From: Candidatus Omnitrophota bacterium
GTDB lineage: Bacteria; Omnitrophota; Gorgyraeia; Zapsychrales; Fredricksoniimonadaceae
Direction of reading: 5' to 3'
Length of the DNA: 64,000 nt
NCBI GenBank assembly: GCA_015233335.1
Contig: JADFXX010000005.1
Location: 1,550 to 65,549 of the forward strand
Shown here piece after piece: positions 5,945-60,124 of this stretch. A program made the position numbers and the translations under genes. The notes below the pieces were generated by a model that saw only the letters and a list, made by a program, of their open reading frames with translations, was not told the origin of the DNA and did not search any database. Every line of letters begins with the position of its first letter. The stretch's first letter is position 1.

Positions 5945-5978
5945 AAACAATATATTTTCACACTTTAGGGGAATGTAA

Positions 5979-7715: not shown

Positions 7716-7760
7716 AACGGCATTTTAGAAGACCAGATGCAGATTGTAAAGGTATAACAA

Positions 7761-9865: not shown

Positions 9866-9989
9866 TGTTTGGATTTTCTAACGATTAATAAAAATTTATT
9901 ATATCAAAAATAGGATGAATTGATATTAAGTAATTCGCTGTGCATAAAACCAATTGTTCAGAACTCCTAAGTCAGTTATAATATTTGCC

Positions 9990-31685: not shown

Positions 31686-31686
31686 A

Positions 31687-36999: not shown

Positions 37000-37027
37000 T
37001 TGACCATACTCAATTTTTGGTTATAAT
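37000..37027 (+). promoter_or_regulatory. Sigma70-type promoter of the glycan supercluster
   Basis: TTGACC (37000-37005), 16-nt spacer, TATAAT (37022-37027). It sits directly after the gap terminator. Confidence 0.65.
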
Positions 37028-37043: not shown

Positions 37044-37622
37044 ATGTATCCCATTATGCCCAATAAGCTTTTAAACGAACGTGAATTTGAACTGGTCAAC
37101 ATTGTAGGTGCCAGGCTTGCGGCCAATCAGCGCGATCTCTCCCGCCACATGAATCTTTCTTTAGGAATGACCAATATGCTTTTAAGGCGGTTGGTGACTA
37201 AAGGCTACATCCGTATCAAGCAACTTGACCGTCGTAAAGTCGAATACCTATTGACCCCCAAAGGGTTTGCGGAGAAGATGCGCAAGTCCGTCAAATACAC
37301 GCTAAACACCATTAATTCCATAGGGTTAATTAAAAAGCAGCTTTTAGATATTTTGGAAAGCCTTTATACAAAAGGCCACAGGAAGTTTTATATTTTAGGC
37401 GATTCAGATTTTGCCCAATTGGTGGAGAGTTCTTTAGTACAGTTTCAATGGGTTGGGGTTGAAGTTAAACGGATTAAATCTCAATTGGAAAATCCTGATG
37501 GACTGGTGCTTATTTGCCGAGAAGATGAAGATAGTCCGGGATCAGGCGGGGAGCGTTATGTGGATTTGATTAAAGAATTGGCTAGCCATAAGAATAACGG
37601 ATTTGCGGCTGTAGAGAGGTAA
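37044..37622 (+). CDS. Winged-helix (MarR-like) transcriptional regulator with an uncharacterised C-terminal domain
   Basis: QRDLSRHMNLSLGMTNMLLRRLVTKGYIRIKQLDRRKVEYLLTPKG (HTH plus wing). First gene of the cluster. No SD; a near-leaderless start is possible. Confidence 0.6.
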   Translation: MYPIMPNKLLNEREFELVNIVGARLAANQRDLSRHMNLSLGMTNMLLRRLVTKGYIRIKQLDRRKVEYLLTPKGFAEKMRKSVKYTLNTINSIGLIKKQLLDILESLYTKGHRKFYILGDSDFAQLVESSLVQFQWVGVEVKRIKSQLENPDGLVLICREDEDSPGSGGERYVDLIKELASHKNNGFAAVER

Positions 37623-37627
37623 GGAAG

Positions 37628-38629
37628 ATGGGGAAGAATGTCTTAGTCACGGGGGGAGCGGGTTTCATTGCAAGTCATTTGGTGGACCATCTCCTTCAGG
37701 AAGGGCATAGCGTTACGATCGTCGATAATTTATCAACAGGGCGCTTAGCCAATATCGCTCATTGTCAAAACCATCCCAGATTGACATTCGTTAAAGAGGA
37801 CATTGTTAATTTTGACAGCATAAGCTCTCTATTTAAAAACAAGGACATGGTGTTTCATCTGGCCGCGTTGGCAGATATTGTGCCTTCTATTGTTGAGCCA
37901 AGAAGTTATTATATGGCGAATGTGACGGGCACGATGAATGTGCTTGAGGCATCCCGTTTAGCAGGGGTTAAACGGTTCGTTTATGCAGCGTCTTCTTCTT
38001 GTTACGGGGTACCTCTTCCCGAGCATTACCCTACTAATGAATCAGCACCGATTAACCCTCAATATCCCTATGCGTTGACAAAATATATGGGAGAGTGTGC
38101 TCTCTTACATTGGGGGCAGGTTTATCATATGCCGGTTATTTCTTTACGATTATTTAATGTGTATGGACCCCGTTCACGAACATCAGGCACTTATGGGGCT
38201 GTTTTCGGTGTTTTTCTAAGCCAGAAATTAAACAATAAACCCTTTACCGTGGTCGGTGATGGTAGTCAAACGCGCGATTTTATTTTTGTCACGGATGTTG
38301 CCAGAGCATTCTATACTGCGGCCTTTTCCGATGTGAGCGGCCAAGTTTTTAATGTCGGAACAGGCCATCCGCAGAGTGTTAATAAACTGGTTTCTTTATT
38401 GCAAGGACAGAAGGTGCATATTCCTAAAAGACCAGGTGAGCCGGACTGCACTTGGGCGGACATACATAAAATTCAGTCTATGCTTGGCTGGCAGCCGCAG
38501 GTATCCTTTGAGCAAGGGGTCGACAAGGTCGTAGAAAATATTGATTATTGGCGGCAAGCACCGGTATGGACCCCTGAAACAATACAGGAAGCAACTAAAG
38601 ATTGGTTTAAATATTTAGTAAGAGATTGA
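37628..38629 (+). CDS. NAD-dependent sugar-nucleotide epimerase/dehydratase (extended SDR)
   Basis: VLVTGGAGFIASHL, catalytic YALTKYMGE (YxxxK). Confidence 0.8.
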   Translation: MGKNVLVTGGAGFIASHLVDHLLQEGHSVTIVDNLSTGRLANIAHCQNHPRLTFVKEDIVNFDSISSLFKNKDMVFHLAALADIVPSIVEPRSYYMANVTGTMNVLEASRLAGVKRFVYAASSSCYGVPLPEHYPTNESAPINPQYPYALTKYMGECALLHWGQVYHMPVISLRLFNVYGPRSRTSGTYGAVFGVFLSQKLNNKPFTVVGDGSQTRDFIFVTDVARAFYTAAFSDVSGQVFNVGTGHPQSVNKLVSLLQGQKVHIPKRPGEPDCTWADIHKIQSMLGWQPQVSFEQGVDKVVENIDYWRQAPVWTPETIQEATKDWFKYLVRD

Positions 38630-38669: not shown

Positions 38670-39695
38670 ATGGATCAACTTAAAACTGTTCTGGTGACAG
38701 GTGGTGCGGGGTATGTGGGAGCGGTGTTAGTCCCTAAGCTTTTAAATAAAGGGTACCGGGTTAAGTGCCTGGATCTTTACACTTATGGTGAGGATATTTT
38801 TGATGATATCAAGGATAAGTCCAATTTGGTTGAAATTAAAGGCGATATTTGTGATCAGGCCCTGTTAAGCCACTCCCTTAAAGGGTGTGACGCTGTTATT
38901 CATTTGGCCTGTATTTCCAACGATCCATCTTTTGAATTAAACCCGGGTTTGAGTTTAAAAGTCAATTATGAAGCTTTTGAACCATTGGTACGCATCAGCA
39001 AAGATAAGGGTGTAAGACGATTTATTTACGCATCGACCTGCAGTGTGTATGGAGTCAGCGATGCCCCGGAAGTTACTGAGGACCATCCATTGTTGCCGAT
39101 CACGGATTACAACAAATATAAGGGCATGTGCGAACCTGTTCTAGGGAAATATCAATCAGCGGAATTTACCACCATCACCATACGCCCGGCTACGGTTTGC
39201 GGTTATTCTCCCCGGCAGCGTTTTGATTTGACGGTCAATATTTTGACTAATCATGCTTACCATAAGAACCATATTACGGTCTTTGGAGGCAAACAGGAAC
39301 GACCCAATATCCATATCAATGATATAACTGATTTGTATGTACAGTTATTGGAACTGCCCGAGTCCAAAATTGCCGGTAAGATTTACAATGCCGGCTATCA
39401 AAATCGATCAGTCGCGGATATCGCCTTGATCGTTCAGAAAATAATGGCCCAGGAATTTCCCCAACGGCCGCAAGCGACCATTGAAACCAAGCCTTCAGAC
39501 GATATCCGTTCTTACAGGATATCTTCCGAGAAAATTAAAAAAGAACTAGGGTTTGTGCCCCGTTTTACCATTGAAGATGCGGTGCGGGATTTGCTCAAGG
39601 CTTTCCGGGGCAATAAGTTTCAGGATTCTATGAATAATCCCCGCTATTTTAACATCAAAATGTTGAAATCTTTGGAGGCCGAGGCAAAGGTATGA
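38670..39695 (+). CDS. NAD-dependent sugar-nucleotide epimerase/dehydratase (extended SDR)
   Basis: VLVTGGAGYVGAVL, YNKYKGMCE (YxxxK). Confidence 0.8.
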   Translation: MDQLKTVLVTGGAGYVGAVLVPKLLNKGYRVKCLDLYTYGEDIFDDIKDKSNLVEIKGDICDQALLSHSLKGCDAVIHLACISNDPSFELNPGLSLKVNYEAFEPLVRISKDKGVRRFIYASTCSVYGVSDAPEVTEDHPLLPITDYNKYKGMCEPVLGKYQSAEFTTITIRPATVCGYSPRQRFDLTVNILTNHAYHKNHITVFGGKQERPNIHINDITDLYVQLLELPESKIAGKIYNAGYQNRSVADIALIVQKIMAQEFPQRPQATIETKPSDDIRSYRISSEKIKKELGFVPRFTIEDAVRDLLKAFRGNKFQDSMNNPRYFNIKMLKSLEAEAKV

Positions 39696-40630
39696 TATCC
39701 AAAGATTTAAAAAAGAAGCTCCTTAGAGGAATGCTCCGTTTGAGACTCATTGAAGAGAGACTGGCCGCTATTTACCATCAAGCAGATGAAATTAAGACAC
39801 CCATGCACCTTTACACGGGGCAGGAAGCCGTTGCCGTAGGAGTTTGTGCTGCTTTAAGGCCAGAGGATACGGTTTCTCCTTATCATCGTTCGCATGGTTG
39901 GTACATCGCTAAAGGCGGGAATTTGTGTGCGATGATGGCAGAATTGATGGGGAAAGAAGCCGGCTGTTGCAAAGGATGGGGAGGATCCATGCATCTTTTG
40001 GATGTGTCTGCGGGGGTCATGGGTTCATCGTCTATTCTCGCCGGAACGGTTCCTCATGCCGTAGGTGCCGCGTTGGCATTTCAGATCAAAGGGGAAGACA
40101 GGGTTGCGATCGCGCCCGCCGGGGATGCGGCCATTGAGGAAGGTGTCTTTCATGAGAGTTTGAACTGGGCTTCGCTCAAGAAGCTTCCTGTTGTATTTAT
40201 TTGTGAAAACAATCTTTACTCAACATCGACACATCTCCGTGACCGTCAGCCTTCTGTTGATATATTTAAGCGTGCTGAGGCTTATGGTATGCCGGGCAGT
40301 CGTTGTGATGGTAATGATGTGGGGGATGTTTATACTAAGACCCTGGAGGCGGTCAACAGGGCGAGGCGTCTGGAAGGCCCAAGTTTTATAGAAGTCATGA
40401 CATATCGGTGGCGGGAACATGTGGGGCCTAATTACGATTGGGACCTGGGGTATCGGACAAAACAAGAGGGAGAAGAGTGGATGATTCGTTGCCCGATCAA
40501 AGCATTGGCCGCAGAATTTCCGGCAGCCCAGGTGCAGTCTTACACAGATGAATTTGAAAAAGAAATTGATGAGGCCTTAGTTTTTGCCCGCCAAGCAGCC
40601 TTCCCTCGAGAGGAAACGATCAGAGTATGA
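39692..40630 (+). CDS. Thiamine-diphosphate-dependent 2-oxoacid dehydrogenase E1 component, alpha subunit-like
   Basis: YHRSHGWYIAKG, GSMHL, and the ThDP-binding motif GDAAIEEG...VVFICENNLYS. ATGA overlaps on both sides. Confidence 0.8.
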   Translation: MISKDLKKKLLRGMLRLRLIEERLAAIYHQADEIKTPMHLYTGQEAVAVGVCAALRPEDTVSPYHRSHGWYIAKGGNLCAMMAELMGKEAGCCKGWGGSMHLLDVSAGVMGSSSILAGTVPHAVGAALAFQIKGEDRVAIAPAGDAAIEEGVFHESLNWASLKKLPVVFICENNLYSTSTHLRDRQPSVDIFKRAEAYGMPGSRCDGNDVGDVYTKTLEAVNRARRLEGPSFIEVMTYRWREHVGPNYDWDLGYRTKQEGEEWMIRCPIKALAAEFPAAQVQSYTDEFEKEIDEALVFARQAAFPREETIRV

Positions 40631-41649
40631 AATATTCAGAAAGCATACGGGATGCTCAAGCCGTGATGATGCGCCATGACAAAAGGGTTTTTATTTGCGG
40701 ATTAGGCGTTCCTGATCCCAAAGGAGTGTTTGGTTCGACCGTGGGGCTCAAAGAAGAGTTCGGCGATAAGCGTGTTTTTGATACCCCCGCATGCGAAAAC
40801 GGGACGTTAGGGATTTTACTTGGGGCTTCATTGCAGGGGATGCGTCCCATCATGGTCAACCAAAGAGTTGATTTTTTCCTGCTCGCTCTTGATCAACTGA
40901 TCAACCATGCTTCTAAGTGGAAGTGTATGTTTGCAGGCCGCCAGGAAATGTCTGTTTTAGTCCGGCTTATTGTAGGCCGGGGATGGGGGCAAGGGCCGCA
41001 GCATTCTCAAAGCATGCATGCTTTGTTTGCGCATATTCCCGGTCTTACGGTGGCGGCTCCGGCGACGCCTTATGATGCTAAGGGGATGATCATTTCAGCT
41101 TTGCAGGAAGGCGGCCCGGTCGTGATGATTGAACATCGCCGGCTATATGATGAAAATCAAGATGTTCCAGAGGGGATTTATCGTGTAGCTTTTGGTCAAG
41201 CCCATGTAGCCATAGAGGGCAAAGACGTTACCTTGGTTGCTTCATCGCATATGGTGGCTGAAGCCAAGAAAGCTGCCCGGGTGCTCCTGGGGCAGGGCAT
41301 ATCGGTAGAATTAATCGATTTGAGGAGTTTAAGGCCGTTGGATGTACAGACGGTCTATGCTTCAGTCAAGAAGACCGGTCGTTTGGTTCTTGTAGAGGGG
41401 GATTGGAAACCATGCAGTGTTTCCGGAGAGATCATAGCCGCATTGGCGGAAAAAGACCCGAAGATTTTTAAATCAGCCCCTGTACGGGTCATGTGGCCAG
41501 ATATGCCTGTACCGACGAGCGCTCCTCTGGAGACGGCATTTTATCCTTCCATTAAGGACATAGCGGACGCCTGTTTAAAAGTTTTAGGAAGACCTGTTTT
41601 GGCGGCAGAAGTCAAACCGGAAAAAGCCAATTTTAACGGGCCATTTTAG
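40627..41649 (+). CDS. E1 component beta subunit-like (transketolase pyrimidine-binding plus C-terminal domains)
   Basis: FDTPACENGTLGILLGASLQGMRPI..., HSQSMHALFAHIPGLTVAAPATPYDAKG, IDLRSLRPLD. Confidence 0.8.
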   Translation: MKYSESIRDAQAVMMRHDKRVFICGLGVPDPKGVFGSTVGLKEEFGDKRVFDTPACENGTLGILLGASLQGMRPIMVNQRVDFFLLALDQLINHASKWKCMFAGRQEMSVLVRLIVGRGWGQGPQHSQSMHALFAHIPGLTVAAPATPYDAKGMIISALQEGGPVVMIEHRRLYDENQDVPEGIYRVAFGQAHVAIEGKDVTLVASSHMVAEAKKAARVLLGQGISVELIDLRSLRPLDVQTVYASVKKTGRLVLVEGDWKPCSVSGEIIAALAEKDPKIFKSAPVRVMWPDMPVPTSAPLETAFYPSIKDIADACLKVLGRPVLAAEVKPEKANFNGPF

Positions 41650-41672
41650 GCATGCTGCTGTGTGCGGCATGC
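41650..41672 (+). other. Stem-loop immediately after the E1-beta stop (intra-operon hairpin; not a canonical terminator)
   Basis: GCATGCTGC-TGTGT-GCGGCATGC: 9-bp stem with one G-U pair and no T-tract after it. Confidence 0.35.
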
Positions 41673-41711
41673 AGGTTATCGAATTTTTAAAAGTATAAAA
41701 ACGGAGAGATT

Positions 41712-42374
41712 ATGGGACAAGAAATTGATTTATTGGATCTTTATCCTCGATCAAAACGGCCTATTGATGAGCGGGGGGCGCTTGCCACGGATGAAAACAA
41801 GCGTATCGCCAAACAGTTCGGTCAGCAATATTTCGACGGTGACCGGATGTTTGGTTACGGCGGGTACTCCTATCAAGAAAGGTTCTGGAAAGATACTGTG
41901 CGTCGTTTTCGCGACCATTACCGGTTAACGGAAAATGCGCGCATTCTGGATGTGGGTTGTGCCAAGGGTTTCATGATGTATGATTTTAAGAAATTGATGC
42001 CTCAGGCACATATCGAAGGGGTGGATATCTCAACCTATGCCAAAGAAAATGCCGTCGAGACCATGAAGCCGTTTATTCATGTCGGCAATGCCAAGAAATT
42101 GCCGTTTCAGGATAACTCATTTGATCTGGTGATATGCATCAACACGGTCCATAACCTTAAACTGGATGAATGTAAATTGGCTTTGCGCGAACTGCAACGG
42201 GTGTCCGGCGGCAAAGCTTTTTTAACGGTGGATGCCTGGCGTAATGAAAAAGAACATCAGAATATGCTGAAATGGAATCTAACGGCCGAAACATATATGC
42301 ATGCCGATGATTGGAAGAAACTATTTGCAGAGACCGGGTATCAGGGCGACTATTTTTGGTTTATCGCCCAGTAA
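41712..42374 (+). CDS. Class I SAM-dependent methyltransferase
   Basis: ILDVGCAKGFMMYDF (motif I), FDLVICINTVHNL. Shine-Dalgarno GGAGAG upstream. Confidence 0.8.
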   Translation: MGQEIDLLDLYPRSKRPIDERGALATDENKRIAKQFGQQYFDGDRMFGYGGYSYQERFWKDTVRRFRDHYRLTENARILDVGCAKGFMMYDFKKLMPQAHIEGVDISTYAKENAVETMKPFIHVGNAKKLPFQDNSFDLVICINTVHNLKLDECKLALRELQRVSGGKAFLTVDAWRNEKEHQNMLKWNLTAETYMHADDWKKLFAETGYQGDYFWFIAQ

Positions 42375-42395
42375 TCTAAGGGAGGTTGAATTTCA

Positions 42396-43427
42396 ATGTT
42401 AGCAGCGATACTGGTAGAATCCCGGAAGCCTTTGGTTTTAGATGAAGTCCAACTGCCCTTGTCCCTGGAATACGGTCAGGTGCTTGTTAAGGTGTTTTAT
42501 ACCGGCATTTGCGGGGCACAGATCAATGAGATCGAAGCACGTAAGGGGCCGGATAAATTTTTGCCTCATTTGTTGGGGCACGAAGGCGGTGGGGTCGTTG
42601 AATCCTGCGGTCCGGGGGTCACGACGGTCAAACCAGGTGACCATGTTGTCATGCATTGGCGTCCGGGGCGTGGTATACAGTCTCCCACACCGAAATACCT
42701 TTGGAAGGGAAAGCCCATCAATGCGGGCTGGGTGACGACATTCAACGAAAAGGCGATCGTCTCGGAAAATCGGGTTACCGTGATCCCCAAAGATTTCGAC
42801 CTTAAATTGGCGGCTCTTTATGGATGTGCTATTACCACCGGCTATGGTGTCGTCCATAACGATGCCCGTTTAAAAAGCGGGGAATCGTTAGTGGTCGTAG
42901 GGGCGGGGGGCGCCGGTATGTCCGTTATATTAATGGCATCCCTGATAGGTGCAAATCCCATTATTGCCGTCGATATCCATGATGATAAGCTTAAACAAGC
43001 CAGGAAGTTTGGCGCCACGCACGTCATTAATTCTAAAAAAGAAAACACTGTTGAAAAAATAAGGCAGGTTCTTCCTCAGGGGGCTGATGTGGCGGTCGAC
43101 GCTACCGGAATTAAAGAAATCCGGGAGCTTTGTTATGAGTTGGCTTCGGGCATGGGACGTACTGTATTAGTCGGGGTACCGTTAGCCGGAGAGAAAATCA
43201 CCATTGATTCTTTTCCCTTACATTTTGGTAAAAGCATTACCGGATCTCACGGCGGAGATGTCAACCCGGACTATGTCATTCCCCGTTTGATCTCTTTGCA
43301 AAACACCGGACGCCTTTCTTTAGATGGGATGATTTCCCATGAATTTCCGTTTAACCGGATTAACGAAGCTCTGGATATGGTGCGACGGGGGGAAGCGTTG
43401 CGTTGTGTCTTACAGATGGCACACTAA
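42396..43427 (+). CDS. Zinc-dependent medium-chain alcohol dehydrogenase
   Basis: GICGAQ..., LGHEGGGVVESCGPGV, Rossmann VVVGAGGAGMSV. Confidence 0.85.
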   Translation: MLAAILVESRKPLVLDEVQLPLSLEYGQVLVKVFYTGICGAQINEIEARKGPDKFLPHLLGHEGGGVVESCGPGVTTVKPGDHVVMHWRPGRGIQSPTPKYLWKGKPINAGWVTTFNEKAIVSENRVTVIPKDFDLKLAALYGCAITTGYGVVHNDARLKSGESLVVVGAGGAGMSVILMASLIGANPIIAVDIHDDKLKQARKFGATHVINSKKENTVEKIRQVLPQGADVAVDATGIKEIRELCYELASGMGRTVLVGVPLAGEKITIDSFPLHFGKSITGSHGGDVNPDYVIPRLISLQNTGRLSLDGMISHEFPFNRINEALDMVRRGEALRCVLQMAH

Positions 43428-43468
43428 CAGATCGGGTATTATTTTTCATTCTACTTGAGGAGTAAGTC

Positions 43469-44245
43469 ATGGATTTAGGAATTAAGGGAAAATTAGCATT
43501 AGTGACGGGTGGCGGTAGGGGTATTGGTCGGGCTATAGCGATGTGTTTAGCTCGGGAAGGAGCACGCGTTGCCGTTGTATCGAGAACAGAGGAAGATGTG
43601 AAGGAAACCGTTGAAGTCATGGGGGGCCGATCGGCTGGTCATCACGGCATAGTGATGGATTTGTCCCCAGATGAGGCCCCGGGACTTTTAGTCAAGGATT
43701 TAAGGGCCAATTTCGGTGATCCGGCGATTGTGGTGCATAATCTTGGCGGGACATTGGGTATCACCGACCCTTTTTGTTCGCGGGAGGAATGGCGGCGAGT
43801 CTATCGTTTTAATTTTGAGATTGCGGTTGAATTGAATGTTTATTTAGTGCCCGGCATGCAGAAGGCTAAATGGGGACGTGTTATTCATATTTCTTCGATT
43901 TCAGCGATGGAGAACCATGGGCCGGCAACGTACTGTGCGATGAAAGCAGCTTTGACGGCGTATACGCGTAGTTTCGGCGGCTATGTGGCTGCGGATGGGG
44001 TGATGGTTTCTGCTGTTCTTCCGGGGGCTGTTTTTACAGAAAAAGGGTATTGGGATATCACTTCCAGGGAGAGGCCGGAACATGTCAAAAAATATCTGAC
44101 TGAGCGTCAACGTATCGGCCGATTCGGAAAAACTGACGAGATCGGTAATTTTGTTGCTTTTCTTTGTTCCCAGCAGGCTTCTTTCAATCCCGGGAGTGTC
44201 ATTCCGATTGATGGTGGACAAGGCAGAGGGTATTTTGGGCAATAA
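43469..44245 (+). CDS. Short-chain dehydrogenase/reductase (classical SDR)
   Basis: LVTGGGRGIGRAIA, YCAMKAAL (YxxxK). Confidence 0.85.
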   Translation: MDLGIKGKLALVTGGGRGIGRAIAMCLAREGARVAVVSRTEEDVKETVEVMGGRSAGHHGIVMDLSPDEAPGLLVKDLRANFGDPAIVVHNLGGTLGITDPFCSREEWRRVYRFNFEIAVELNVYLVPGMQKAKWGRVIHISSISAMENHGPATYCAMKAALTAYTRSFGGYVAADGVMVSAVLPGAVFTEKGYWDITSRERPEHVKKYLTERQRIGRFGKTDEIGNFVAFLCSQQASFNPGSVIPIDGGQGRGYFGQ

Positions 44246-44306
44246 CATTTTTCAAGACCCTTGACTGACGGTCGTGTCAAAGCGTCAGGGGTTGTAAGGA
44301 GCAGAA

Positions 44307-45080
44307 ATGAACAATGAATTCCGTCGAAAGATTGTGGATATGGTATGTAAAGGCAGGGATGGCCATATCCCTAGTTCGTTTTCTATTATTGATGTTATTT
44401 CAATTCTCTATAGAGATTTCTTAAAGTTCAATAGCAAGGATCCGCATTGGGAGGGACGGGATTATTTTATTCTTAGTAAAGGACACGGTTGTTTAGCTTT
44501 ATATGTTGTGTTAAGGGAGCATGGATTTCTGACAGATCAGGATATCGCCAATTTTTGTAAAAAAGGCGGGATTTTAGGGGAACATCCTGATTCCACGAAG
44601 GTCCCAGGAGCCGAAGCTTGTACAGGGTCACTAGGGCATGGTTTTCCGTTTGCAGTTGGCGTTGCCTTGGGACTGCGTATTCAAAATCGGGAAAATCATG
44701 TTTTTGTTCTTGTGGGAGACGGCGAATGCCATGAGGGTACAATATGGGAAGCGGCCAATGTCTCAAACAATATGGAGTTAGGAAATCTTTGTCTCATTGT
44801 TGATTGGAATGGTTCGGCGGCACAACTGATGCCCAAAGATGATTTACCGGCAAAGTGGCGTGCATTTGGCTGGAATGTTCAAGTTATTGACGGCCATTCT
44901 GAGGAGGAAATTAAGAAGGCGTTAGGGAATGTTCATTTTTCTTCCCGAGGGACCCCGAATGTCATCATCACCAAGACTGTTAAAGGCAAAGGTGTTCCCA
45001 TGTTGGAAGGACACGGGGTTTGGCACCATCGCATTCCCAATGAGGAAGAGTATAAGACGATCATGGAGGCGTTGAAATGA
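44307..45080 (+). CDS. Split transketolase, N-terminal (ThDP-binding) subunit
   Basis: LSKGHGCLALY, GSLGHGFPFAVGVALG, VLVGDGECHEGTIWEAANVSNN...VDWNG. Confidence 0.85.
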   Translation: MNNEFRRKIVDMVCKGRDGHIPSSFSIIDVISILYRDFLKFNSKDPHWEGRDYFILSKGHGCLALYVVLREHGFLTDQDIANFCKKGGILGEHPDSTKVPGAEACTGSLGHGFPFAVGVALGLRIQNRENHVFVLVGDGECHEGTIWEAANVSNNMELGNLCLIVDWNGSAAQLMPKDDLPAKWRAFGWNVQVIDGHSEEEIKKALGNVHFSSRGTPNVIITKTVKGKGVPMLEGHGVWHHRIPNEEEYKTIMEALK

Positions 45081-45997
45081 GTATGAAGAAAATGAGGCAA
45101 CAGTTTGCTGATACAATGCTGGAAGTAGGCCGGGCAGATCCCAAGCTTTCTGTTTTGATCGGGGATATCAGTCATTTTATTTTACAGCCTTTTGCGCGTG
45201 CTTGTCCCGGAAGATTTTATAATGTCGGCATTTGTGAACCAACGATCATCAGCATGGCGGCAGGGATGGCCAAAACAGGGCTTCATCCGGTAGTCCATAC
45301 GATTGCCCCGTTTATTTTAGAGCGTTCTTTCGAACAAATTAAACTTGATTTTTGCTATCAAGGATTATCGGGGAATATAATCACGGTAGGAAGTGCTTTT
45401 GATTATTCCAATTTAGGATGTACCCATCACTGTTACGATGATTTTGCATTGATGAAGTCCCTTCCCCGTACGCAGGTCGTTTATCCGGCCTCACCGGTAG
45501 AATTTGATTTGCTATTTAGAGAGACATATCGTAATGATCACCTGACCCTTTTTCGGCTTCCGGAATATCAGCATGATCAGGTCATTGATCCTTCTTTGAT
45601 CAAGTTTGGGAAGGCCATTCGATTGAGGGAGGGGTCTGACTTAACGATCATTGCTGCAGGGCCGCAGCTTAAGAATGCAGTTTTAGCCAAACAACAATTA
45701 GAGAAGCAGGGAAAGAGCATCGAGATTATTTATATCCCAACCATCCATCCGTTAGATGCCGAGATGATCCATCAAAGTGTATCAAAGACTAAAAGAGTGG
45801 TCATTGTAGAAGAACATAATGTTTTTGGCGGCGTTGGCGATGATGTTCGAAAAATCGTTACAGATATTTCTGGGGTCAAGTTGATCAATTTGGGAATTAA
45901 AGGGTTTGTGCGCGAATATGGTACCTACGAACAATTGTGTGCAGAGGCCGAGCTTTCGGTCGAAGGCATTTTGAAAGCAGCCGGGTATGGAGAATAA
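45077..45997 (+). CDS. Split transketolase, C-terminal (pyrimidine-binding) subunit
   Basis: NVGICEPTIISMAAGMAKTGLHPVVHTIAPFILERSFEQIKLD. ATGA overlap with the N-terminal subunit. Confidence 0.85.
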   Translation: MSMKKMRQQFADTMLEVGRADPKLSVLIGDISHFILQPFARACPGRFYNVGICEPTIISMAAGMAKTGLHPVVHTIAPFILERSFEQIKLDFCYQGLSGNIITVGSAFDYSNLGCTHHCYDDFALMKSLPRTQVVYPASPVEFDLLFRETYRNDHLTLFRLPEYQHDQVIDPSLIKFGKAIRLREGSDLTIIAAGPQLKNAVLAKQQLEKQGKSIEIIYIPTIHPLDAEMIHQSVSKTKRVVIVEEHNVFGGVGDDVRKIVTDISGVKLINLGIKGFVREYGTYEQLCAEAELSVEGILKAAGYGE

Positions 45998-47144
45998 TCA
46001 CCAACGGCCTTTTATTGATTATTATAAAAAACACAAGATATCCCCTGTTTCTCAGGATATCTCAGACCTCAAGAAGCATTATGACCGCAGGGCATTTTTG
46101 TATCGCCGTCTGGGTATATTGCCGTCCTTTCTTAACGGCCGTACAGTCATCGAGTTCGGCCCGGGCAGCGGATATAATTCTTTATTTACTTTGAGCCTTC
46201 AGCCTTTAAAATACGTTCTTGTCGATGGTAATCCGACGGCATTGAAAGGGTGTATAGAGCTCTTCACAAAATATTTTCCAAGAGAAAAGAACTATGAGCT
46301 GGTAGATTCTCTGATCGAAGAATATCATAATAATGAGCTGTTCGATCTGGTTATTTCCGAAGGTTTGATCCCTAATCAGAAAGATCCTGCGCAATTCGCA
46401 CGTTCTATCGCCGGCTTTACCAAGCCGGGGGGTGTTTGTGTTATTACTTGTCAAGATGCAGTCGGAGTTTTTGCGGATCTTTTGCGCTATTTGATTGGGA
46501 ATATGGTTATAAATGAGGGCCTTTCATACGAAGAGAATGTTAATGTGCTGGTAGCCATGTTTAAACCGCATTTGGAAAGTTTAAAAGGCATGAGCAGGCC
46601 TCATCAAGATTGGGTCGCAGACGCGATTTTGCACAAGGATATGTGGTGTCGGGGCAGCCATTTCTCTATCGGACATGCGATCGAAGCGTTAGATTCTTCT
46701 TTTGATGTTTATGGAGTATCACCGTATATTTTTACCGATTGGCGCTGGTATAAAGATGTTTTTGGCAAGCAACGGGCTTTTAATGCGGTTGCCAAAGAGT
46801 GTTATCTACGGAATCTTCATAATTTTCTTGATTACCGTTTTGAATTTCCTGCGAGATCTGCTGAAGACAATATTCAGCTTATGGGTCATTGTCAGGCTAT
46901 ATGGGAGCTGATAAAACTTTTTGGGGAAGGAAGGGATAAAAAATATATTGAGGCCATCTGTACTGAAATATCCAGGCTGGAGATGAAAGTAAGGGATTAT
47001 TCGCCCAGTACTGCGGACTCGTTGGCGGATTTTCTATTGGGCCTGAAACAATACCCAGAGATTACTGGAAAGACCAATTGGGGGAGGTTTTCAGATTTTT
47101 GGGGGAGAGGGATGCAGTATTTAAGTTTTATTCGGACGCAATAG
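45987..47144 (+). CDS. Class I SAM methyltransferase-like protein with a long C-terminal extension
   Basis: VIEFGPGSGYNSLF (motif I), FDLVISEG, PGGVCVITC. Confidence 0.6.
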   Translation: MENNHQRPFIDYYKKHKISPVSQDISDLKKHYDRRAFLYRRLGILPSFLNGRTVIEFGPGSGYNSLFTLSLQPLKYVLVDGNPTALKGCIELFTKYFPREKNYELVDSLIEEYHNNELFDLVISEGLIPNQKDPAQFARSIAGFTKPGGVCVITCQDAVGVFADLLRYLIGNMVINEGLSYEENVNVLVAMFKPHLESLKGMSRPHQDWVADAILHKDMWCRGSHFSIGHAIEALDSSFDVYGVSPYIFTDWRWYKDVFGKQRAFNAVAKECYLRNLHNFLDYRFEFPARSAEDNIQLMGHCQAIWELIKLFGEGRDKKYIEAICTEISRLEMKVRDYSPSTADSLADFLLGLKQYPEITGKTNWGRFSDFWGRGMQYLSFIRTQ

Positions 47145-47187: not shown

Positions 47188-48684
47188 ATGGCTTTAAAAC
47201 TTGATATGAAGGCACGACAAGCATTAAAGGCAATCAAGAAGATGGTCCGTAAGGGAGAGCGGATTGTTTTTGTTTCAGGTAATTTTAATATTGTCCACCC
47301 GGGGCATTTGCGTTTGTTGCGTTTTGCCGCTCAATGCGGGGATTTTCTTGTGGTGGGGGTTCAAGCGGATGCCTTGACGCAGTTAACGCTGTTACCGCAG
47401 GCCCTTCGATTGGACGGTGTGCAATCAACGAGCTGGGTGAAGTATGCCTTTCTTTTAAGCGTGCCCCCTGAGGTTTTTATCCGGCATTTAAAACCCGATT
47501 TCGTCGTTAAGGGGCAGGAACATGAGAATCAATACAATCCGGAATCGGCGGCCGTTGAATCTTATGGGGGGAAGTTGCTTTTTAGTTCCGGGGAGGCTAG
47601 TTTTTCCTCATTGGACCTTTTACGGGATGAGTTTAAGAACTTGAATTTTTCAACGATTGTGAAGCCCAAAGATTTCTTGATCCGCCATGGGTTTAGTTTG
47701 GTGGACTTGAGGAAAACTGTTGGGAAAATGAAAGGCCTTCGGGTGGTGGTCATCGGTGAAACGATTGTGGATGAGTATATCACGTGTGATCCGCTGGGGA
47801 TGTCCCAGGAAGACCCGACCATTGCAGTGACACCAATTGCCAAAGACCGTTTTGTAGGTGGGGCAGGTATTGTATCGGCACATGCACGCGGTTTTGGGGC
47901 TGATGTGCACTTTTTTTCGGTCGTGGGAAAGGATGAGCCTTCTGATTTTGTCCGGCATTGTTTAAAAAAATATGGCGTTAATGCGCATATTTACGAGGAT
48001 GAAAGTCGTCCCACCATACGCAAGGAAAGGTTCCGTGCTCATGGCAAGACTTTGTTAAGGGTCAATCATTTTCATCAGCACCCCATCAATCAAGGTATAC
48101 AAAAGAAGATCATTCGCAACCTCAGCGATATTCTGAATGATACAAAGCTGTTGATATTCTCCGATTTTAATTATGGCTGCCTTCCTCAACCTTTAGTGGA
48201 TGAAATCATTGCTCTTTGTCAGGCCAAGGATGTGATGATAGTCGCAGACAGCCAGGCTTCATCCCAGATCGGGTATGTATCGCGTTTTCATGATGCTTTG
48301 TTATTGACGCCGACCGAGCGGGAAGCTCGAATTTCAGTGGGTGATTTTAATGCAGGGTTGGTTGTCCTAGCGGAAATGCTCAGGACCAAGGCACGGGCCC
48401 AAAATATCCTTTTAACATTGGGAGCTGAAGGATTGCTTATTCATGCCCCCTCAGCTTCTCCCAAAGAATCGGTAACGGACCGTTTGCCGGCCATGAATGC
48501 GTCACCTAAAGATGTTTCCGGAGCAGGGGATTCGTTGCTCACATGCGCCTCGATGGCCATAGCGGTCGGGGCTGATATTTGGCAGGCCGCGTACTTAGGT
48601 TCGATTGCAGCCGCTTGTCAGCTTAGTCGTATCGGCAATATTCCTTTGACTGTGAATGAATTAATGATGGAGATAAAAAGTTGA
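47188..48684 (+). CDS. Bifunctional cytidylyltransferase-fold / PfkB sugar kinase protein: HldE (RfaE)-like with reversed domain order
   Basis: N-terminal half IVFVSGNFNIVHPGHLRLLRFAAQCGDFLVVGV...PDFVVKGQEHE resembles RfaE domain II. C-terminal half VVVIGETIVDEYITCDPLGMSQEDPTIAVTP...GGAGIVSAH...DVSGAGDSLL resembles RfaE domain I / PfkB. Confidence 0.7.
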   Translation: MALKLDMKARQALKAIKKMVRKGERIVFVSGNFNIVHPGHLRLLRFAAQCGDFLVVGVQADALTQLTLLPQALRLDGVQSTSWVKYAFLLSVPPEVFIRHLKPDFVVKGQEHENQYNPESAAVESYGGKLLFSSGEASFSSLDLLRDEFKNLNFSTIVKPKDFLIRHGFSLVDLRKTVGKMKGLRVVVIGETIVDEYITCDPLGMSQEDPTIAVTPIAKDRFVGGAGIVSAHARGFGADVHFFSVVGKDEPSDFVRHCLKKYGVNAHIYEDESRPTIRKERFRAHGKTLLRVNHFHQHPINQGIQKKIIRNLSDILNDTKLLIFSDFNYGCLPQPLVDEIIALCQAKDVMIVADSQASSQIGYVSRFHDALLLTPTEREARISVGDFNAGLVVLAEMLRTKARAQNILLTLGAEGLLIHAPSASPKESVTDRLPAMNASPKDVSGAGDSLLTCASMAIAVGADIWQAAYLGSIAAACQLSRIGNIPLTVNELMMEIKS

Positions 48685-50206: not shown

Positions 50207-50229
50207 GGTTTTTTAATTTGGAGGTAAAG

Positions 50230-55105: not shown

Positions 55106-55112
55106 AAGATCG

Positions 55113-60115: not shown

Positions 60116-60124
60116 GTGTTGAAT

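What the first reader, a model, noticed from the sequence alone, without database searches (positions are those of the whole stretch)
39692..45997. Two different thiamine-diphosphate enzyme pairs (E1 alpha/beta without E2/E3, and a split transketolase) embedded among sugar-modifying genes
Seen: E1-alpha carries the ThDP motif GDAAIEEG...ENN and is ATGA-coupled to E1-beta. No lipoyl-E2 or E3 gene is present in the window. Five kb downstream lie a 257-aa transketolase N-subunit (GDGECHEG...N) and a 306-aa C-subunit, also ATGA-coupled. Between the two pairs are a SAM methyltransferase, a Zn-ADH and an SDR.
Established: orphan E1 alpha/beta homologs (for example AviB1/AviB2 of avilamycin biosynthesis) and other ThDP enzymes (YerE in yersiniose synthesis) attach two-carbon branches to keto-sugar nucleotides. 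Transketolases move C2 ketol units between sugars and can supply sedoheptulose-7-phosphate.
Inference: this block may build a C-branched or chain-extended sugar, followed by reduction (ADH/SDR) and methylation. Two such systems in one locus is unusual.
Basis: partly seen in the sequence, partly recalled or inferred. Interest (0 to 1): 0.65.

Follow-up and report, generated by a model that had tools for sequence, protein, structure and literature searches.

The report
Sugar-branching thiamine enzyme cassette
Two pairs of thiamine-dependent enzyme genes in a cell-surface sugar gene cluster of an uncultivated Omnitrophota bacterium are probably not central-metabolism genes; they most likely add two-carbon units to sugar building blocks, and the two pairs recur together in many environmental bacteria.

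Summary
In detail: all seven genes, both ThDP motifs and the ATGA overlaps are as described. No E2 or E3 homologue occurs in the 64-kb window or in 166 related loci (2.1 Mb).

The E1 alpha/beta pair scores below NCBI's PDH-E1 cut-offs. It groups with E1 pairs from actinomycete deoxysugar clusters, including the kosinostatin producer Micromonospora okii. These are the 'alpha-KADH2' enzymes that add an acetyl branch from pyruvate to keto-sugars.

The split transketolase keeps every cofactor and donor-side residue. It has lost the sugar-phosphate and acceptor residues (E. coli S385, H461, D469, R520). This signature defines a large clade of environmental sequences.

The pairing is not a one-off. 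Of 39 long metagenome contigs found with the TK C-subunit, 23 also carry the E1 pair, usually with the same methyltransferase, Zn-ADH and SDR. In sister cassettes an acetolactate-synthase-like, possibly YerE-like, enzyme takes the transketolase's place, and the two never co-occur.

Best reading: a conserved cassette with two successive ThDP carboligations on keto-sugar intermediates, each followed by reduction and methylation. The substrates and the product are inferred, not shown. This is a new variant of known or proposed enzyme kinds and is of moderate interest.

The parts
37044..37622 (+). MarR-like winged-helix regulator, first gene of the array. A strong sigma-70-like site lies at 37000-37027.
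   Evidence: PF01047 1.4e-5. The same regulator + SDR + SDR + E1ab order occurs in L001 and L003. TTGACC-16-TATAAT is reported, but scan counts there are not above chance.
37628..38629 (+). Extended SDR of the GalE/TviC 4-epimerase type (SSSSCYG, no dehydratase Asp-Glu).
   Evidence: PF01370 9e-60; GalE 188 bits and TviC 147 bits, both below cut-off. 58-73% identical homologues in L001, L005, L029 and L068.
38670..39695 (+). Extended SDR, ATGA-coupled to E1 alpha. It is the candidate enzyme that provides the keto-sugar acceptor.
   Evidence: PF01370 4e-37. ATGA overlap at 39692. 92% identical in L001 and 58-59% in L012, L032, L059, L061 and L076, mostly directly upstream of the E1 pair. The role is inferred.
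39692..40630 (+). E1 alpha subunit of an orphan ThDP enzyme (alpha-KADH2 type). It is the proposed acetyl (C2) donor-activating subunit, with pyruvate as the likely donor.
   Evidence: PF00676 8e-62. TIGR03182 271.5 bits against a cut-off of 393.85. Motif GDAAIEEG...ENN. Clade and signature loop YRWREHVGPNYDWDLGYRT are shared with actinomycete natural-product E1 alpha.
40627..41649 (+). E1 beta subunit, with a C-terminal extension of about 20 aa compared with G. stearothermophilus E1 beta.
   Evidence: PF02779 + PF02780. PRK09212 270.5 bits against a cut-off of 321. Matches 1W85_B at 2e-67 with the catalytic His (QHSQS) retained.
41712..42374 (+). Class I SAM methyltransferase ('MT220'), a conserved cassette member.
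   Evidence: PF08241 6e-16. 53-68% identical orthologues in 24 of 87 E1-anchored loci and 28 of 39 TK-anchored loci.
42396..43427 (+). Zn-dependent medium-chain dehydrogenase, a conserved cassette member. It is the proposed ketoreductase of an added C2 unit.
   Evidence: PF00107 + PF08240. Present in 20 of 87 and 23 of 39 loci, typically next to MT220. The role is inferred.
43469..44245 (+). Classical SDR immediately upstream of TK-N. It either generates the keto acceptor or reduces the product.
   Evidence: PF13561 4e-37. A classical SDR is the gene directly upstream of TK-N in 28 of 39 TK-anchored loci, with 50-74% identity. It is 70% identical in L052.
44307..45080 (+). N-terminal (PP-domain) subunit of a non-canonical split transketolase-like enzyme.
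   Evidence: PF00456 1e-40. Matches 6YAK at 3e-58. H26, H66, H100, D155 and N185 (E. coli numbering) are conserved. The H261 equivalent was read by eye from the alignment.
45077..45997 (+). C-terminal (Pyr + C domain) subunit of the transketolase-like enzyme, with a rebuilt acceptor and phosphate site.
   Evidence: PF02779 + PF02780. R358, E411 and H473 are kept; S385F, H461G, D469L and R520E are changed. The same signature dominates the 135 best cluster representatives. NCBI calls it 'hypothetical protein HQL14_03930'.
45987..47144 (+). 385-aa methyltransferase-domain protein overlapping the end of TK-C. It has no counterpart in the related loci examined.
   Evidence: PF13489 1e-7. No NCBIfam hit. 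No homologue in the 21 compared loci.
47188..48684 (+). HldE-like bifunctional protein with reversed domain order (nucleotidyltransferase-like at the N-terminus, PfkB kinase at the C-terminus). It is the proposed sugar-phosphate kinase and activating enzyme of the cassette.
   Evidence: PF01467 + PF00294. rfaE_dom_I 187 bits (cut-off 345) and rfaE_dom_II 60 bits (cut-off 181). 49-61% identical copies at cassette ends, followed by an NTP_transferase where the contig continues.
48681..49391 (+). Sugar-1-phosphate nucleotidyltransferase, coupled to the preceding gene.
   Evidence: PF00483 4e-32. Best NCBIfam matches are mannose-1-P guanylyltransferase and HddC-like models, all below cut-off.
50218..51093 (+). 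FkbM-family methyltransferase, a cassette member in many loci.
   Evidence: TIGR01444 3e-20. 55-58% identical in L012, L070, L075 and L086. Present in 16 of 39 TK-anchored loci.

Best explanation
The seven genes are the core of a conserved, widely distributed sugar-building cassette in which two different ThDP enzymes act as carboligases rather than as central-metabolism enzymes.

Step 1 (inferred). An NDP-activated sugar is made. In many sister loci this goes through divergent GmhA-, HldE- or HddA-like enzymes; here through the reversed HldE-like protein and the nucleotidyltransferase at 47188-49391. The extended SDR coupled to E1 alpha then oxidises it to a keto-sugar.

Step 2. Family membership is shown; the chemistry is inferred from characterised relatives. 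The orphan E1 alpha/beta heterotetramer decarboxylates pyruvate to hydroxyethyl-ThDP and adds it to the sugar carbonyl, giving an acetyl-branched tertiary alcohol. This is what is reported for the alpha-KADH2 enzymes of aldgamycin, kibdelomycin, avilamycin and paulomycin biosynthesis.

Step 3 (inferred). A second carbonyl is generated or exposed by the classical SDR next to TK-N. The split transketolase-like enzyme keeps all residues that hold ThDP and the dihydroxyethyl intermediate, but its sugar-phosphate and acceptor pocket is rebuilt. It would transfer a hydroxyacetyl C2 unit, from hydroxypyruvate or a ketose, onto that carbonyl. The same role is proposed for the split-gene transketolases of miharamycin and amipurimycin.

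Step 4 (inferred). The new side-chain ketones are reduced (Zn-ADH, SDR) and hydroxyls are methylated (MT220, FkbM and other methyltransferases). The finished higher-carbon sugar is then passed to glycosyltransferases for a cell-surface glycan.
For: Not housekeeping enzymes:
- The E1 subunits score below NCBIfam PDH-E1 cut-offs: 271.5 against 393.85 and 270.5 against 321. The two TK halves together score about 365 against 488.
- No AceF or Lpd homologue occurs in the window plus 86 genome loci (1.36 Mb), and none was assigned in the 39 TK-anchored loci of at least 8 kb. No E2/E3 motif occurs in neighbouring ORFs.

E1 family:
- At least 498 GTDB-species loci carry the family.
- Mean pairwise identity within the group is 50%, against 38% to AcoA, PdhA and human PDHA1.
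- The group separates from those three in 81 of 100 bootstraps.
- E1 alpha from the kosinostatin producer M. okii TP-A0468 (54% identity in the trimmed alignment) and from a Streptomyces deoxysugar cluster nest inside it. Both share GD[GA]A[TVI]EEG and the YRWREH[VC]GP..D.D.GYR loop.
- The literature describes alpha-KADH2 enzymes adding C2 branches from pyruvate to keto-sugars. KbDH was shown in vitro and aldgamycin by genetics (PMC12247030; PMC4753412).

TK:
- All six glycan-locus pairs keep H26, H66, H100, D155, N185, R358, E411 and H473.
- They carry S385F/A/E, H461G and D469L, and R520 is changed to E, A or K in five of the six (kept in L052). The validated split TK 6YAK keeps all of these residues.
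- Among the 135 best cluster representatives, about 110 have Gly at 461, 67 have both G461 and L469, and only 2 are canonical.

Cassette:
- Among TK-anchored loci of at least 8 kb, 23 of 39 have E1 alpha, 24 E1 beta, 28 MT220, 23 Zn-ADH and 25 the SDR258 type. A classical SDR lies directly upstream of TK-N in 28 of 39.
- The position 'E1ab - SDR - [X] - MT220 - Zn-ADH' is filled either by an AHAS-like ThDP enzyme (11 loci) or by split TK (9 loci), never both.
- Split-gene TKs have been proposed to add hydroxyacetyl to a keto-sugar (PMC12247030).
Against: - No enzyme of this cassette has been assayed. Substrates, regiochemistry and product are inferred from context and from relatives that are only 46-54% identical.
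- The role of split TK in miharamycin is itself unproven (PMC12247030).
- E1 keeps both histidines used for reductive acylation of lipoamide, so use of an E2 encoded elsewhere cannot be excluded from sequence.
- Only three canonical outgroups were used in the tree.
- Whether both enzymes act on the same sugar is unknown.
- The window lacks the GmhA-like gene found in many sister cassettes.
- The rest of the genome could not be checked for housekeeping PDH and Tkt.
Confidence: 0.6

Rival explanations
1. Precursor supply. The E1 pair branches the sugar, but the split transketolase only raises the supply of sedoheptulose-7-phosphate, or another ketose phosphate, that feeds the HldE/GmhA-like nucleotide-heptose branch. 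This would parallel the transaldolase LmbR in lincomycin octose synthesis.
For: Divergent GmhA-, HldE- and HddA-like genes accompany the cassette in many loci. A transaldolase-family gene lies next to the E1 pair in 5 loci. The TK keeps R358 and the full donor-side catalytic set.
Against: Three of the four phosphate-binding residues (S385, H461, R520) and the acceptor-recognising D469 are replaced across the clade, while a genuine split TK keeps them. The TK is flanked by an SDR and by methyltransferases and Zn-ADH, not by the isomerase or kinase. Its position is taken by an AHAS-like enzyme, which cannot make ketose phosphates.
Confidence: 0.12
2. Side-group synthesis. One or both ThDP enzymes build a small non-sugar unit, such as an acyloin or diol, or an acyl group later used for N- or O-acylation. 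This unit is then attached to an ordinary sugar, rather than forming a C-C bond on the sugar itself. A special case is a 2-oxo-acid decarboxylase role, for example on phosphonopyruvate.
For: Zn-ADH and SDR partners resemble butanediol and acetoin dehydrogenases. DegT aminotransferases and acyltransferases are frequent neighbours. In L003/L004 the E1 pair sits directly before a PEP-mutase fusion with no canonical phosphonopyruvate decarboxylase in view.
Against: PEP mutase occurs in only 2 of 87 loci. The nearest relatives with experimental data act on keto-sugars or ketone analogues of sugars (PMC12247030). E1 alpha is translationally coupled to an NDP-sugar-type SDR. NDP-hexose C-methyltransferase-like genes sit inside the cassette.
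Confidence: 0.1
3. Chain extension rather than branching. The E1 pair, the TK-like enzyme or both add their C2 unit to a sugar aldehyde, for example at C6 after oxidation. This would lengthen the backbone, as DXS does with glyceraldehyde-3-phosphate, instead of forming a tertiary-alcohol branch at a ring ketone.
For: UDP-glucose/GDP-mannose dehydrogenase-family and GFO-type oxidoreductases accompany the E1 pair in one recurrent locus type. ThDP enzymes generally prefer aldehydes as acceptors.
Against: All characterised or genetically supported relatives of this E1 clade make ring branches at C3 or C4 (PMC12247030). No direct evidence either way exists for this cassette.
Confidence: 0.12
4. Housekeeping genes. 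These are the organism's ordinary pyruvate dehydrogenase E1 and transketolase, and they merely lie inside a glycan cluster.
For: Pfam and NCBIfam best hits are PDH E1 alpha/beta and transketolase. Catalytic residues are intact. The rest of the genome could not be inspected.
Against: Scores are below equivalog cut-offs. No E2/E3 occurs in 2.1 Mb of related loci. The TK substrate site is rebuilt. Both pairs travel together with sugar-modifying genes across many phyla.
Confidence: 0.03

Closest known systems
alpha-KADH2-type sugar-branching E1 alpha/beta enzymes of actinomycete antibiotics: AviB1/AviB2 (avilamycin), Pau11/Pau12 (paulomycin), AlmDI/DII (aldgamycin), KbDH-alpha/beta (kibdelomycin) and the kosinostatin enzyme
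   Same: Two adjacent genes encode E1 alpha and E1 beta with no E2/E3, and sit among NDP-sugar genes. The window's E1 alpha is 48-54% identical to E1 alpha of M. okii TP-A0468 and of a Streptomyces deoxysugar cluster. It shares their GDxAxEEG motif and YRWREHVGP..D.D.GYR loop, and they nest in the same clade. Downstream tailoring by reduction, methylation or transamination of the added ketone matches the neighbouring gene types (PMC12247030).
   Different: The host is an uncultivated Gram-negative-type Omnitrophota bacterium. The locus looks like a cell-surface glycan cluster (ABC exporter, glycosyltransferase, MBOAT, LegB/LegC), not an antibiotic cluster. The sugar may start from a heptose-type route rather than TDP-glucose. 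The pair is coupled with a second ThDP carboligase. The named reference sequences themselves were not compared.
Split-gene transketolases proposed to add a hydroxyacetyl branch to a keto-sugar in miharamycin and amipurimycin biosynthesis
   Same: Split N and C subunits, an oxidoreductase directly adjacent, and a location inside a sugar-tailoring cluster (PMC12247030).
   Different: The review lists only 13 such sequences, all from Streptomycetes and none characterised. Here the clade is large (534 clusters at 50% identity with E<=1e-30; 509 metagenome loci) and lies in Omnitrophota, Planctomycetota, Desulfobacterota, Chloroflexota, Methylococcaceae and CPR. Its relationship to the Streptomyces sequences was not tested.
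YerE / ErwE / MyGE (acetolactate-synthase-like ThDP enzymes that branch CDP-4-keto-3,6-dideoxyglucose in O-antigens)
   Same: The proposed chemistry is the same: a ThDP-bound acyl anion adds to a sugar ketone and a reductase follows. An AHAS-like enzyme occupies exactly the TK position in sister cassettes (PMC9306805).
   Different: The fold family is different: a single chain with three TPP_enzyme domains, described in PMC4753412 as a flavoprotein. Neither window enzyme is a member. Whether the sister-cassette AHAS-like proteins are true YerE relatives was not tested.
Canonical split transketolase of Carboxydothermus hydrogenoformans (PDB 6YAK/6YAJ)
   Same: Best solved-structure match for both subunits (3e-58 and 9e-42). 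The split architecture and ThDP-binding residues are the same.
   Different: 6YAK keeps S385, H461, D469 and R520 (E. coli numbering). The window enzyme has F, G, L and E at those sites.
Pyruvate dehydrogenase / acetoin dehydrogenase E1 alpha2beta2 (human PDHA1/PDHB, G. stearothermophilus 1W85, AcoA/AcoB)
   Same: Same fold, ThDP motif and catalytic histidines in both subunits.
   Different: Identity is 35-39%. Scores fall below equivalog cut-offs. The active-site 'phosphorylation' loop differs. E1 beta carries a C-terminal extension. There is no E2/E3 partner nearby, whereas the Leisingera pdhA used as outgroup has an E2 next to it.

Membership tests
alpha-KADH2-type sugar-branching E1 alpha/beta (AviB1/B2-like) | Adjacent genes for an E1 alpha (PP-domain) and an E1 beta (Pyr + C-domain) subunit with an intact ThDP motif and catalytic residues | tested here: met
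   PF00676; PF02779 + PF02780; ATGA coupling; GDAAIEEG...ENN; catalytic His retained in alpha and beta and activating Glu in beta.
alpha-KADH2-type sugar-branching E1 alpha/beta (AviB1/B2-like) | No cognate lipoyl-E2 or E3 in the cluster | tested here: met
   tblastn with E. coli AceF and Lpd gives no hit at E<=1e-3 in the window plus 86 loci, and no E2/E3 assignment in the 39 TK-anchored loci of at least 8 kb. A genome-wide absence could not be tested.
alpha-KADH2-type sugar-branching E1 alpha/beta (AviB1/B2-like) | Sequence clade shared with the natural-product enzymes and separate from PDH/BCKDH/acetoin E1 | tested here: met
   E1 alpha of M. okii TP-A0468 (kosinostatin producer) and of a Streptomyces deoxysugar cluster nest within the group. 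The split from AcoA, PdhA and PDHA1 has 81/100 bootstrap support, and the signature loop is shared. Caveats: AviB1, AlmDI and KbDH themselves were not available; only three outgroups were used; and placement of the M. okii gene inside the kosinostatin cluster is likely but not proven.
alpha-KADH2-type sugar-branching E1 alpha/beta (AviB1/B2-like) | Embedded among nucleotide-sugar modifying genes | tested here: met
   SDR epimerase/dehydratases occur in 60 of 87 loci, DegT in 39, nucleotidyltransferases and kinases in about half. E1 alpha is coupled to an extended SDR.
alpha-KADH2-type sugar-branching E1 alpha/beta (AviB1/B2-like) | Catalyses addition of the C2 unit of pyruvate to a keto-sugar | not testable with these tools
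   Needs an enzyme assay. Known for KbDH in vitro and for aldgamycin by genetics (PMC12247030).
Metabolic PDH / BCKDH / acetoin dehydrogenase E1 | Reaches the curated equivalog score | tested here: not met
   TIGR03182 271.5 bits against 393.85; TIGR03181 189 against 411; PRK09212 270.5 against 321; PRK11892 265 against 454.
Metabolic PDH / BCKDH / acetoin dehydrogenase E1 | Encoded with, or next to, E2 and E3 components | tested here: not met
   None in the window or in related loci. The canonical control, Leisingera pdhA, has an adjacent E2.
Canonical transketolase (Tkt) | ThDP-binding and donor-side catalytic residues (E. coli H26, H66, H100, D155, N185, H261, E411, H473) | tested here: met
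   All are conserved in the window enzyme and in five other glycan-locus pairs. H261 was read by eye from the alignment.
Canonical transketolase (Tkt) | Sugar-phosphate binding residues (R358, S385, H461, R520) and the acceptor C2-OH-recognising D469 | tested here: not met
   Only R358 is kept. The window has S385F, H461G, D469L and R520E. The pattern holds across the clade, while 6YAK and E. coli TktA keep all of them.
Canonical transketolase (Tkt) | Reaches the curated equivalog score | tested here: not met
   Against PRK05899.2-5 the N half scores 220.6 and the C half 144.5, against a cut-off of 488 for a full-length enzyme. Adding the two halves is only a rough sum.
Split-gene TK proposed as keto-sugar hydroxyacetyl transferase (miharamycin/amipurimycin type) | Split N/C genes next to an oxidoreductase inside a sugar-tailoring cluster | tested here: met
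   ATGA-coupled N/C genes. A classical SDR lies directly upstream in 28 of 39 loci.
Split-gene TK proposed as keto-sugar hydroxyacetyl transferase (miharamycin/amipurimycin type) | Sequence relationship to the Streptomyces enzymes | not tested
   Reference sequences were not obtainable.
Split-gene TK proposed as keto-sugar hydroxyacetyl transferase (miharamycin/amipurimycin type) | Transfers a hydroxyacetyl unit to a ketone acceptor | not testable with these tools
   Not yet shown for any member (PMC12247030).
YerE family (AHAS-like sugar-branching enzymes) | Single polypeptide with TPP_enzyme_N, _M and _C domains | tested here: not met
   Neither window enzyme has this architecture. Such proteins occur in sister cassettes in place of the TK pair.

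The most novel reading that the evidence does not exclude
The E1 pair and the transketolase-like pair act one after the other on the same nucleotide-sugar. They would form the core of a conserved, uncharacterised cassette of about 12 genes, spread across Omnitrophota, Planctomycetota, Desulfobacterota, Chloroflexota, CPR and some Proteobacteria. Its product would be a doubly C2-branched or C2-extended, multiply methylated higher-carbon monosaccharide (C10 or larger) for a cell-surface glycan. This would be a sugar class and a tandem use of two ThDP enzyme superfamilies not yet described. The H461G/D469L transketolase-like clade would be a new, environmentally abundant family of ketone-accepting carboligases.
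Probability: 0.35. Interest if true: 0.75.

Novelty: new variant of a known kind. Interest (0 to 1): 0.55.

Why it matters
C-branched and chain-extended sugars are rare and immunologically distinctive. Their biosynthesis is known for only a few cases. A 2025 review (PMC12247030) counts about 120 alpha-KADH2 gene clusters and only 13 candidate ketone-accepting transketolases, all from Streptomycetes and none characterised.

This locus, and the roughly 1,000 related loci sampled here, show three things:
- Both enzyme types are common in surface-glycan clusters of uncultivated phyla.
- They are genetically linked into one cassette.
- The transketolase type can be recognised by a simple active-site signature.

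That gives enzymologists a large new pool of potential tertiary-alcohol-forming biocatalysts. It gives glycobiologists a concrete prediction of an unknown sugar. It also points to a culturable entry point, the Azospirillum oryzae KACC 14407 plasmid. On the practical side, these genes are currently annotated as PDH E1, 'transketolase' or 'hypothetical', which would mislead metabolic reconstructions of such MAGs.

Tried and rejected
- Coxiella lead. I recalled that the Coxiella burnetii O-antigen region carries E1 or transketolase genes linked to virenose or dihydrohydroxystreptose. Two LPS genetics papers hold no mention of them (searches failed on term length). Dropped.
- General literature searches combining transketolase, E1 and O-antigen or capsule terms gave nothing relevant.
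- Phosphonate hypothesis (E1 as phosphonopyruvate decarboxylase), prompted by L003/L004. PEP mutase is present in only those 2 of 87 loci and not in the window. Rejected as a general role and kept as an open oddity.
- The regex screen for E2/E3 motifs was judged too crude and replaced by tblastn with E. coli AceF and Lpd.
- Automatic ORF calling failed on the high-GC actinomycete loci. One apparent conserved cluster (c10) was an antisense artefact. Codon-position GC was used instead.
- Krug 2024 and Romo 2019, which hold the reference enzymes, are not in the library. Cluster look-up of transketolase-like representatives returned no names or taxa.
- tRNA and Rfam scans of the window found nothing.
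- The promoter and terminator scan was not above shuffled expectation. Only the site at 37000 is notable.
- Structure prediction was not used, because the decisive residues could be read from alignments to solved structures.

Full report
**1. Observation**

- E1 alpha, 39692-40630, 312 aa.
- E1 beta, 40627-41649, 340 aa.
- A class I SAM methyltransferase, 41712-42374.
- A Zn-dependent dehydrogenase, 42396-43427.
- A classical SDR, 43469-44245.
- A transketolase N-subunit, 44307-45080, 257 aa.
- A transketolase C-subunit, 45077-45997, 306 aa.

The ThDP motifs GDAAIEEG...ENN and GDGECHEG...WNG are present. The junctions E1a/E1b and TKN/TKC are ATGA overlaps. A third ATGA overlap joins the upstream extended SDR (38670-39695) to E1 alpha.

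The genes sit in a single-strand array running from a MarR-like gene at 37044 to beyond 63317. The array also encodes:
- two extended SDRs;
- further methyltransferases;
- a reversed HldE-like kinase/nucleotidyltransferase;
- a sugar-1-P nucleotidyltransferase;
- a TIGR04372 glycosyltransferase;
- an MsbA-like ABC exporter;
- LegB and a LegC-family aminotransferase;
- a B12-radical-SAM enzyme;
- an MBOAT.

Upstream of 37000 the genes are housekeeping (GAPDH, LpxL-like, Lnt, SecA, RF, YchF, UvrC). The window is from a Candidatus Omnitrophota MAG, on a contig of 142,773 bp. No E2 or E3 homologue is detectable anywhere in the 64 kb.

**2. The E1 pair is not a metabolic PDH E1**

Both subunits score below NCBI's curated equivalog cut-offs: 271.5 against 393.85 for alpha and 270.5 against 321 for beta. 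The best solved structures are human PDHA1 (about 1e-42) and G. stearothermophilus E1 beta (2e-67). Both catalytic histidines are kept. The alpha 'phosphorylation' loop is different, and beta has a C-terminal extension of about 20 residues.

A pattern scan of one genome per GTDB species found at least 498 loci encoding relatives. They come from Omnitrophota, Planctomycetota, Chloroflexota, Poribacteria, CPR groups, Chlamydiota, Nitrospirota, Desulfobacterota, Proteobacteria and a few actinomycetes.

I called and clustered the ORFs of 87 loci. E1 alpha is normally followed directly by E1 beta where the contig and the ORF calling allow. The recurrent neighbours are:
- NDP-sugar-type SDRs, 60 loci;
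- DegT aminotransferases, 39;
- a reversed HldE-like protein, 31;
- B12-radical-SAM enzymes, 28;
- a GmhA-like SIS protein, 25;
- the same 220-aa methyltransferase, 24;
- a Zn-ADH, 20;
- GHMP (HddA-like) kinases and nucleotidyltransferases, 14 each.

tblastn with E. coli AceF and Lpd found nothing in 1.36 Mb of these loci.

**3. The E1 pair belongs with the sugar-branching E1 enzymes of antibiotic pathways**

Two of the loci are actinomycete natural-product clusters.
- In Micromonospora okii TP-A0468, the kosinostatin producer (PMC8698034), the E1 pair lies beside an EryCIII-type glycosyltransferase, a P450 and an MFS exporter.
- In a Streptomyces locus it lies beside a GFO-type oxidoreductase, a sugar-1-phosphate nucleotidyltransferase and an EryCIII-type glycosyltransferase.

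Their E1 alpha proteins are 48-54% identical to the window's. The canonical AcoA, PdhA and human PDHA1 are only 37-39% identical. All members of the group share GD[GA]A[TVI]EEG and the loop YRWREH[VC]GP..D.D.GYR, where canonical enzymes have YRYHGHSMSDPGVSYR.

In a neighbour-joining tree the three canonical sequences separate from 106 group members in 81 of 100 bootstraps. The actinomycete pair nests inside the group.

The literature calls these enzymes alpha-KADH2. They add a C2 acetyl branch from pyruvate to keto-sugars at C3 or C4. This is shown genetically for aldgamycin and in vitro for KbDH of kibdelomycin. It is proposed for avilamycin (AviB1/B2), paulomycin (Pau11/12) and kosinostatin. 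The new ketone is then reduced, methylated, oxidised or transaminated (PMC12247030; PMC4753412).

**4. The split transketolase is not a canonical transketolase**

Its best structural relative is the validated split TK of Carboxydothermus hydrogenoformans (6YAK/6YAJ; 3e-58 and 9e-42). I aligned it with E. coli TktA, fetched from NC_000913, and with five other glycan-locus pairs.
- Conserved in all: H26, H66, H100, D155, N185, E411, H473 and R358.
- Changed: S385 becomes F, A or E; H461 becomes G; D469 becomes L; R520 becomes E, A or K in five of the six pairs (L052 keeps Arg).
- 6YAK keeps all of these residues.

From established transketolase enzymology, the changed residues bind the substrate phosphate, and D469 reads the acceptor's C2-hydroxyl. 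The conserved residues hold ThDP and the dihydroxyethyl intermediate.

An exhaustive HMMER search found 534 clusters (50% identity) at E<=1e-30. Among the 135 best full-length representatives, about 110 have Gly at position 461 and 67 have both G461 and L469. Only two are canonical, and both sit at the bottom of the list. This is a large, distinct, environmentally abundant clade. NCBI annotates the window protein as 'hypothetical'.

**5. The two pairs are parts of one conserved cassette**

I repeated the context analysis starting from the TK C-subunit in metagenome contigs: 509 confirmed loci, of which 80 were fetched. Of the 39 loci of at least 8 kb:
- 23 carry E1 alpha and 24 carry E1 beta;
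- 28 carry the 220-aa methyltransferase;
- 23 carry the Zn-ADH;
- 25 carry the SDR258-type reductase;
- 19 carry a TylCIII-like C-methyltransferase;
- 16 carry FkbM;
- 14 carry the SIS protein;
- none carries an AHAS-like gene, an E2 or an E3.

A classical SDR is the gene directly upstream of TK-N in 28 of 39.

A typical order is: SIS - SDR - SDR - MT220 - E1a - E1b - (C-MT) - SDR - TKN - TKC - FkbM - MT220/Zn-ADH - HldE-like - NTP-transferase. The window has the same parts in a slightly different order.

In E1-anchored loci the position after 'E1ab - SDR' and before 'MT220 - Zn-ADH' is filled in one of two ways. It holds either an acetolactate-synthase-like ThDP enzyme (11 loci; TPP_enzyme_N/M/C domains, below the AHAS cut-off) or the split TK (9 loci). 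The two never occur together.

The AHAS-like fold is that of YerE, ErwE and MyGE, which attach acyl branches to CDP-4-keto-3,6-dideoxyglucose (PMC9306805). This non-homologous replacement argues that the TK-like enzyme does the same kind of job, namely carboligation onto a sugar carbonyl, rather than supplying sedoheptulose-7-phosphate.

The 2025 review notes that split-gene TKs have been proposed to add a hydroxyacetyl branch to a keto-sugar in miharamycin and amipurimycin. It also notes that only 13 candidates, all from Streptomycetes, are known and that none has been characterised.

**6. Mechanism proposed**

Shown:
- family placement of both enzymes;
- absence of E2/E3 nearby;
- retention of catalytic residues and loss of canonical substrate residues in the TK;
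- the conserved linkage and the AHAS/TK replacement.

Inferred:
- an SDR makes a keto-sugar nucleotide;
- E1ab adds an acetyl unit from pyruvate;
- a second SDR prepares or processes a second carbonyl;
- the TK-like enzyme adds a hydroxyacetyl unit;
- Zn-ADH and SDR reduce the side-chain ketones, and methyltransferases cap the hydroxyls;
- the product, a higher-carbon branched sugar, goes into a surface glycan.

The divergent GmhA-, HldE- and HddA-like genes all score below cut-off. They suggest a heptose-type starting sugar in many loci. That is a hint only, and the window itself lacks the SIS gene.

**7. Rivals**

- TK as precursor supplier, 0.12.
- Synthesis of a non-sugar substituent, including a decarboxylase role suggested by the PEP-mutase neighbour in L003/L004, 0.10.
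- Chain extension at an aldehyde rather than ring branching, 0.12. This is really a variant of the main model.
- Plain housekeeping genes, 0.03.

The evidence for and against each is given in the structured fields.

**8. Limits**

- There is no biochemistry.
- The reference sequences AviB1, AlmDI, KbDH and the miharamycin TK were not available.
- The tree has only three outgroups and uses neighbour-joining.
- ORF calling in the loci was crude, and family assignment was by BLAST.
- The rest of the MAG could not be searched for housekeeping tkt or PDH.

**9. Verdict**

Each enzyme kind is known or already proposed. Three things are new:
- the presence of both in surface-glycan loci of many uncultivated phyla;
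- their tight linkage in one cassette, with an interchangeable second ThDP enzyme;
- a clear sequence signature for the transketolase-like clade.

Novelty: new variant of a known kind. Interest: 0.55.

Noticed in passing
window 54131-56294: LegB (NAD-dependent 4,6-dehydratase, 491 bits against a cut-off of 475) and a LegC-family aminotransferase (475 against 420) lie side by side. No NeuB-, NeuC- or NeuA-like gene follows down to 63.3 kb. The pair may therefore make a GDP-linked 4-amino-4,6-dideoxy sugar rather than legionaminic acid.
   Followed up: partly
window 47188-48684 (also L005, L089 and others): This HldE-like bifunctional protein has its two domains in the reverse order: nucleotidyltransferase first, PfkB kinase second. 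Two kinds exist, only about 25% identical to each other. The window's kind is followed by an NTP_transferase gene in every compared locus that extends far enough.
   Followed up: partly
L003 10001-16622 and L004 (E1 alpha 67% identical to the window's): The E1 pair sits directly upstream of a PEP-mutase/nucleotidyltransferase fusion, an APS-kinase/NTP-transferase protein and an Fe-ADH. No canonical phosphonopyruvate decarboxylase is in view. In this phosphonate context the E1 pair might decarboxylate phosphonopyruvate. It is seen in only 2 of 87 loci.
   Followed up: partly
L089 = Azospirillum oryzae KACC 14407 plasmid NZ_CP054615.1, 201669-226544: A cultured bacterium carries a version of the cassette: SDR, SDR, HldE-like, SIS, SDR, E1 alpha (51% identical), E1 beta, two DegT, a radical SAM enzyme, NUDIX and three glycosyltransferases. 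It lacks the transketolase. It could serve as a usable experimental model.
   Followed up: partly
window 1800-12044: A second, separate glycan-type region. It holds three large ORFs with no Pfam match (828, 555 and 537 aa), a GT2 glycosyltransferase (7761-8777, minus strand), a radical-SAM/SPASM gene (8759-9865, minus strand) and a YfhO-like membrane protein (9954-12044). The radical-SAM/SPASM type also recurs next to the E1 pair in other loci.
   Followed up: no
window 56935-58575: A B12-binding radical-SAM enzyme with a C-terminal TPR extension. Its best NCBIfam match is the Sden_1168 P-methyltransferase family (272 bits, cut-off 575). B12-rSAM genes accompany the E1 pair in 28 of 87 loci, which suggests C-methylation of an unactivated sugar carbon.
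   Followed up: no
window 62409-63317: A 302-aa ORF matches only the central third of the DegT/DnrJ aminotransferase profile (positions 80-190 of 360). It may be a truncated or degenerate aminotransferase.
   Followed up: no
window 45987-47144 and 60116-61297: Two cluster genes had no counterpart or no family match. The 385-aa methyltransferase-domain protein overlaps the end of TK-C and has no homologue in the 21 compared loci. The 393-aa protein has no Pfam or NCBIfam hit.
   Followed up: no
L016 7710-8672; also L003, L014, L032: A GSU2086-family protein (383 bits, cut-off 250; weak deoxyhypusine-synthase-like Pfam hits) recurs next to the HldE-like and SIS genes in several E1 loci. Its function is unknown.
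   Followed up: no
window 31531-33171: The listed Lnt (apolipoprotein N-acyltransferase-like) ORF starts at a TTG inside the end of secA (28716-31685). The true start is probably further downstream.
   Followed up: no
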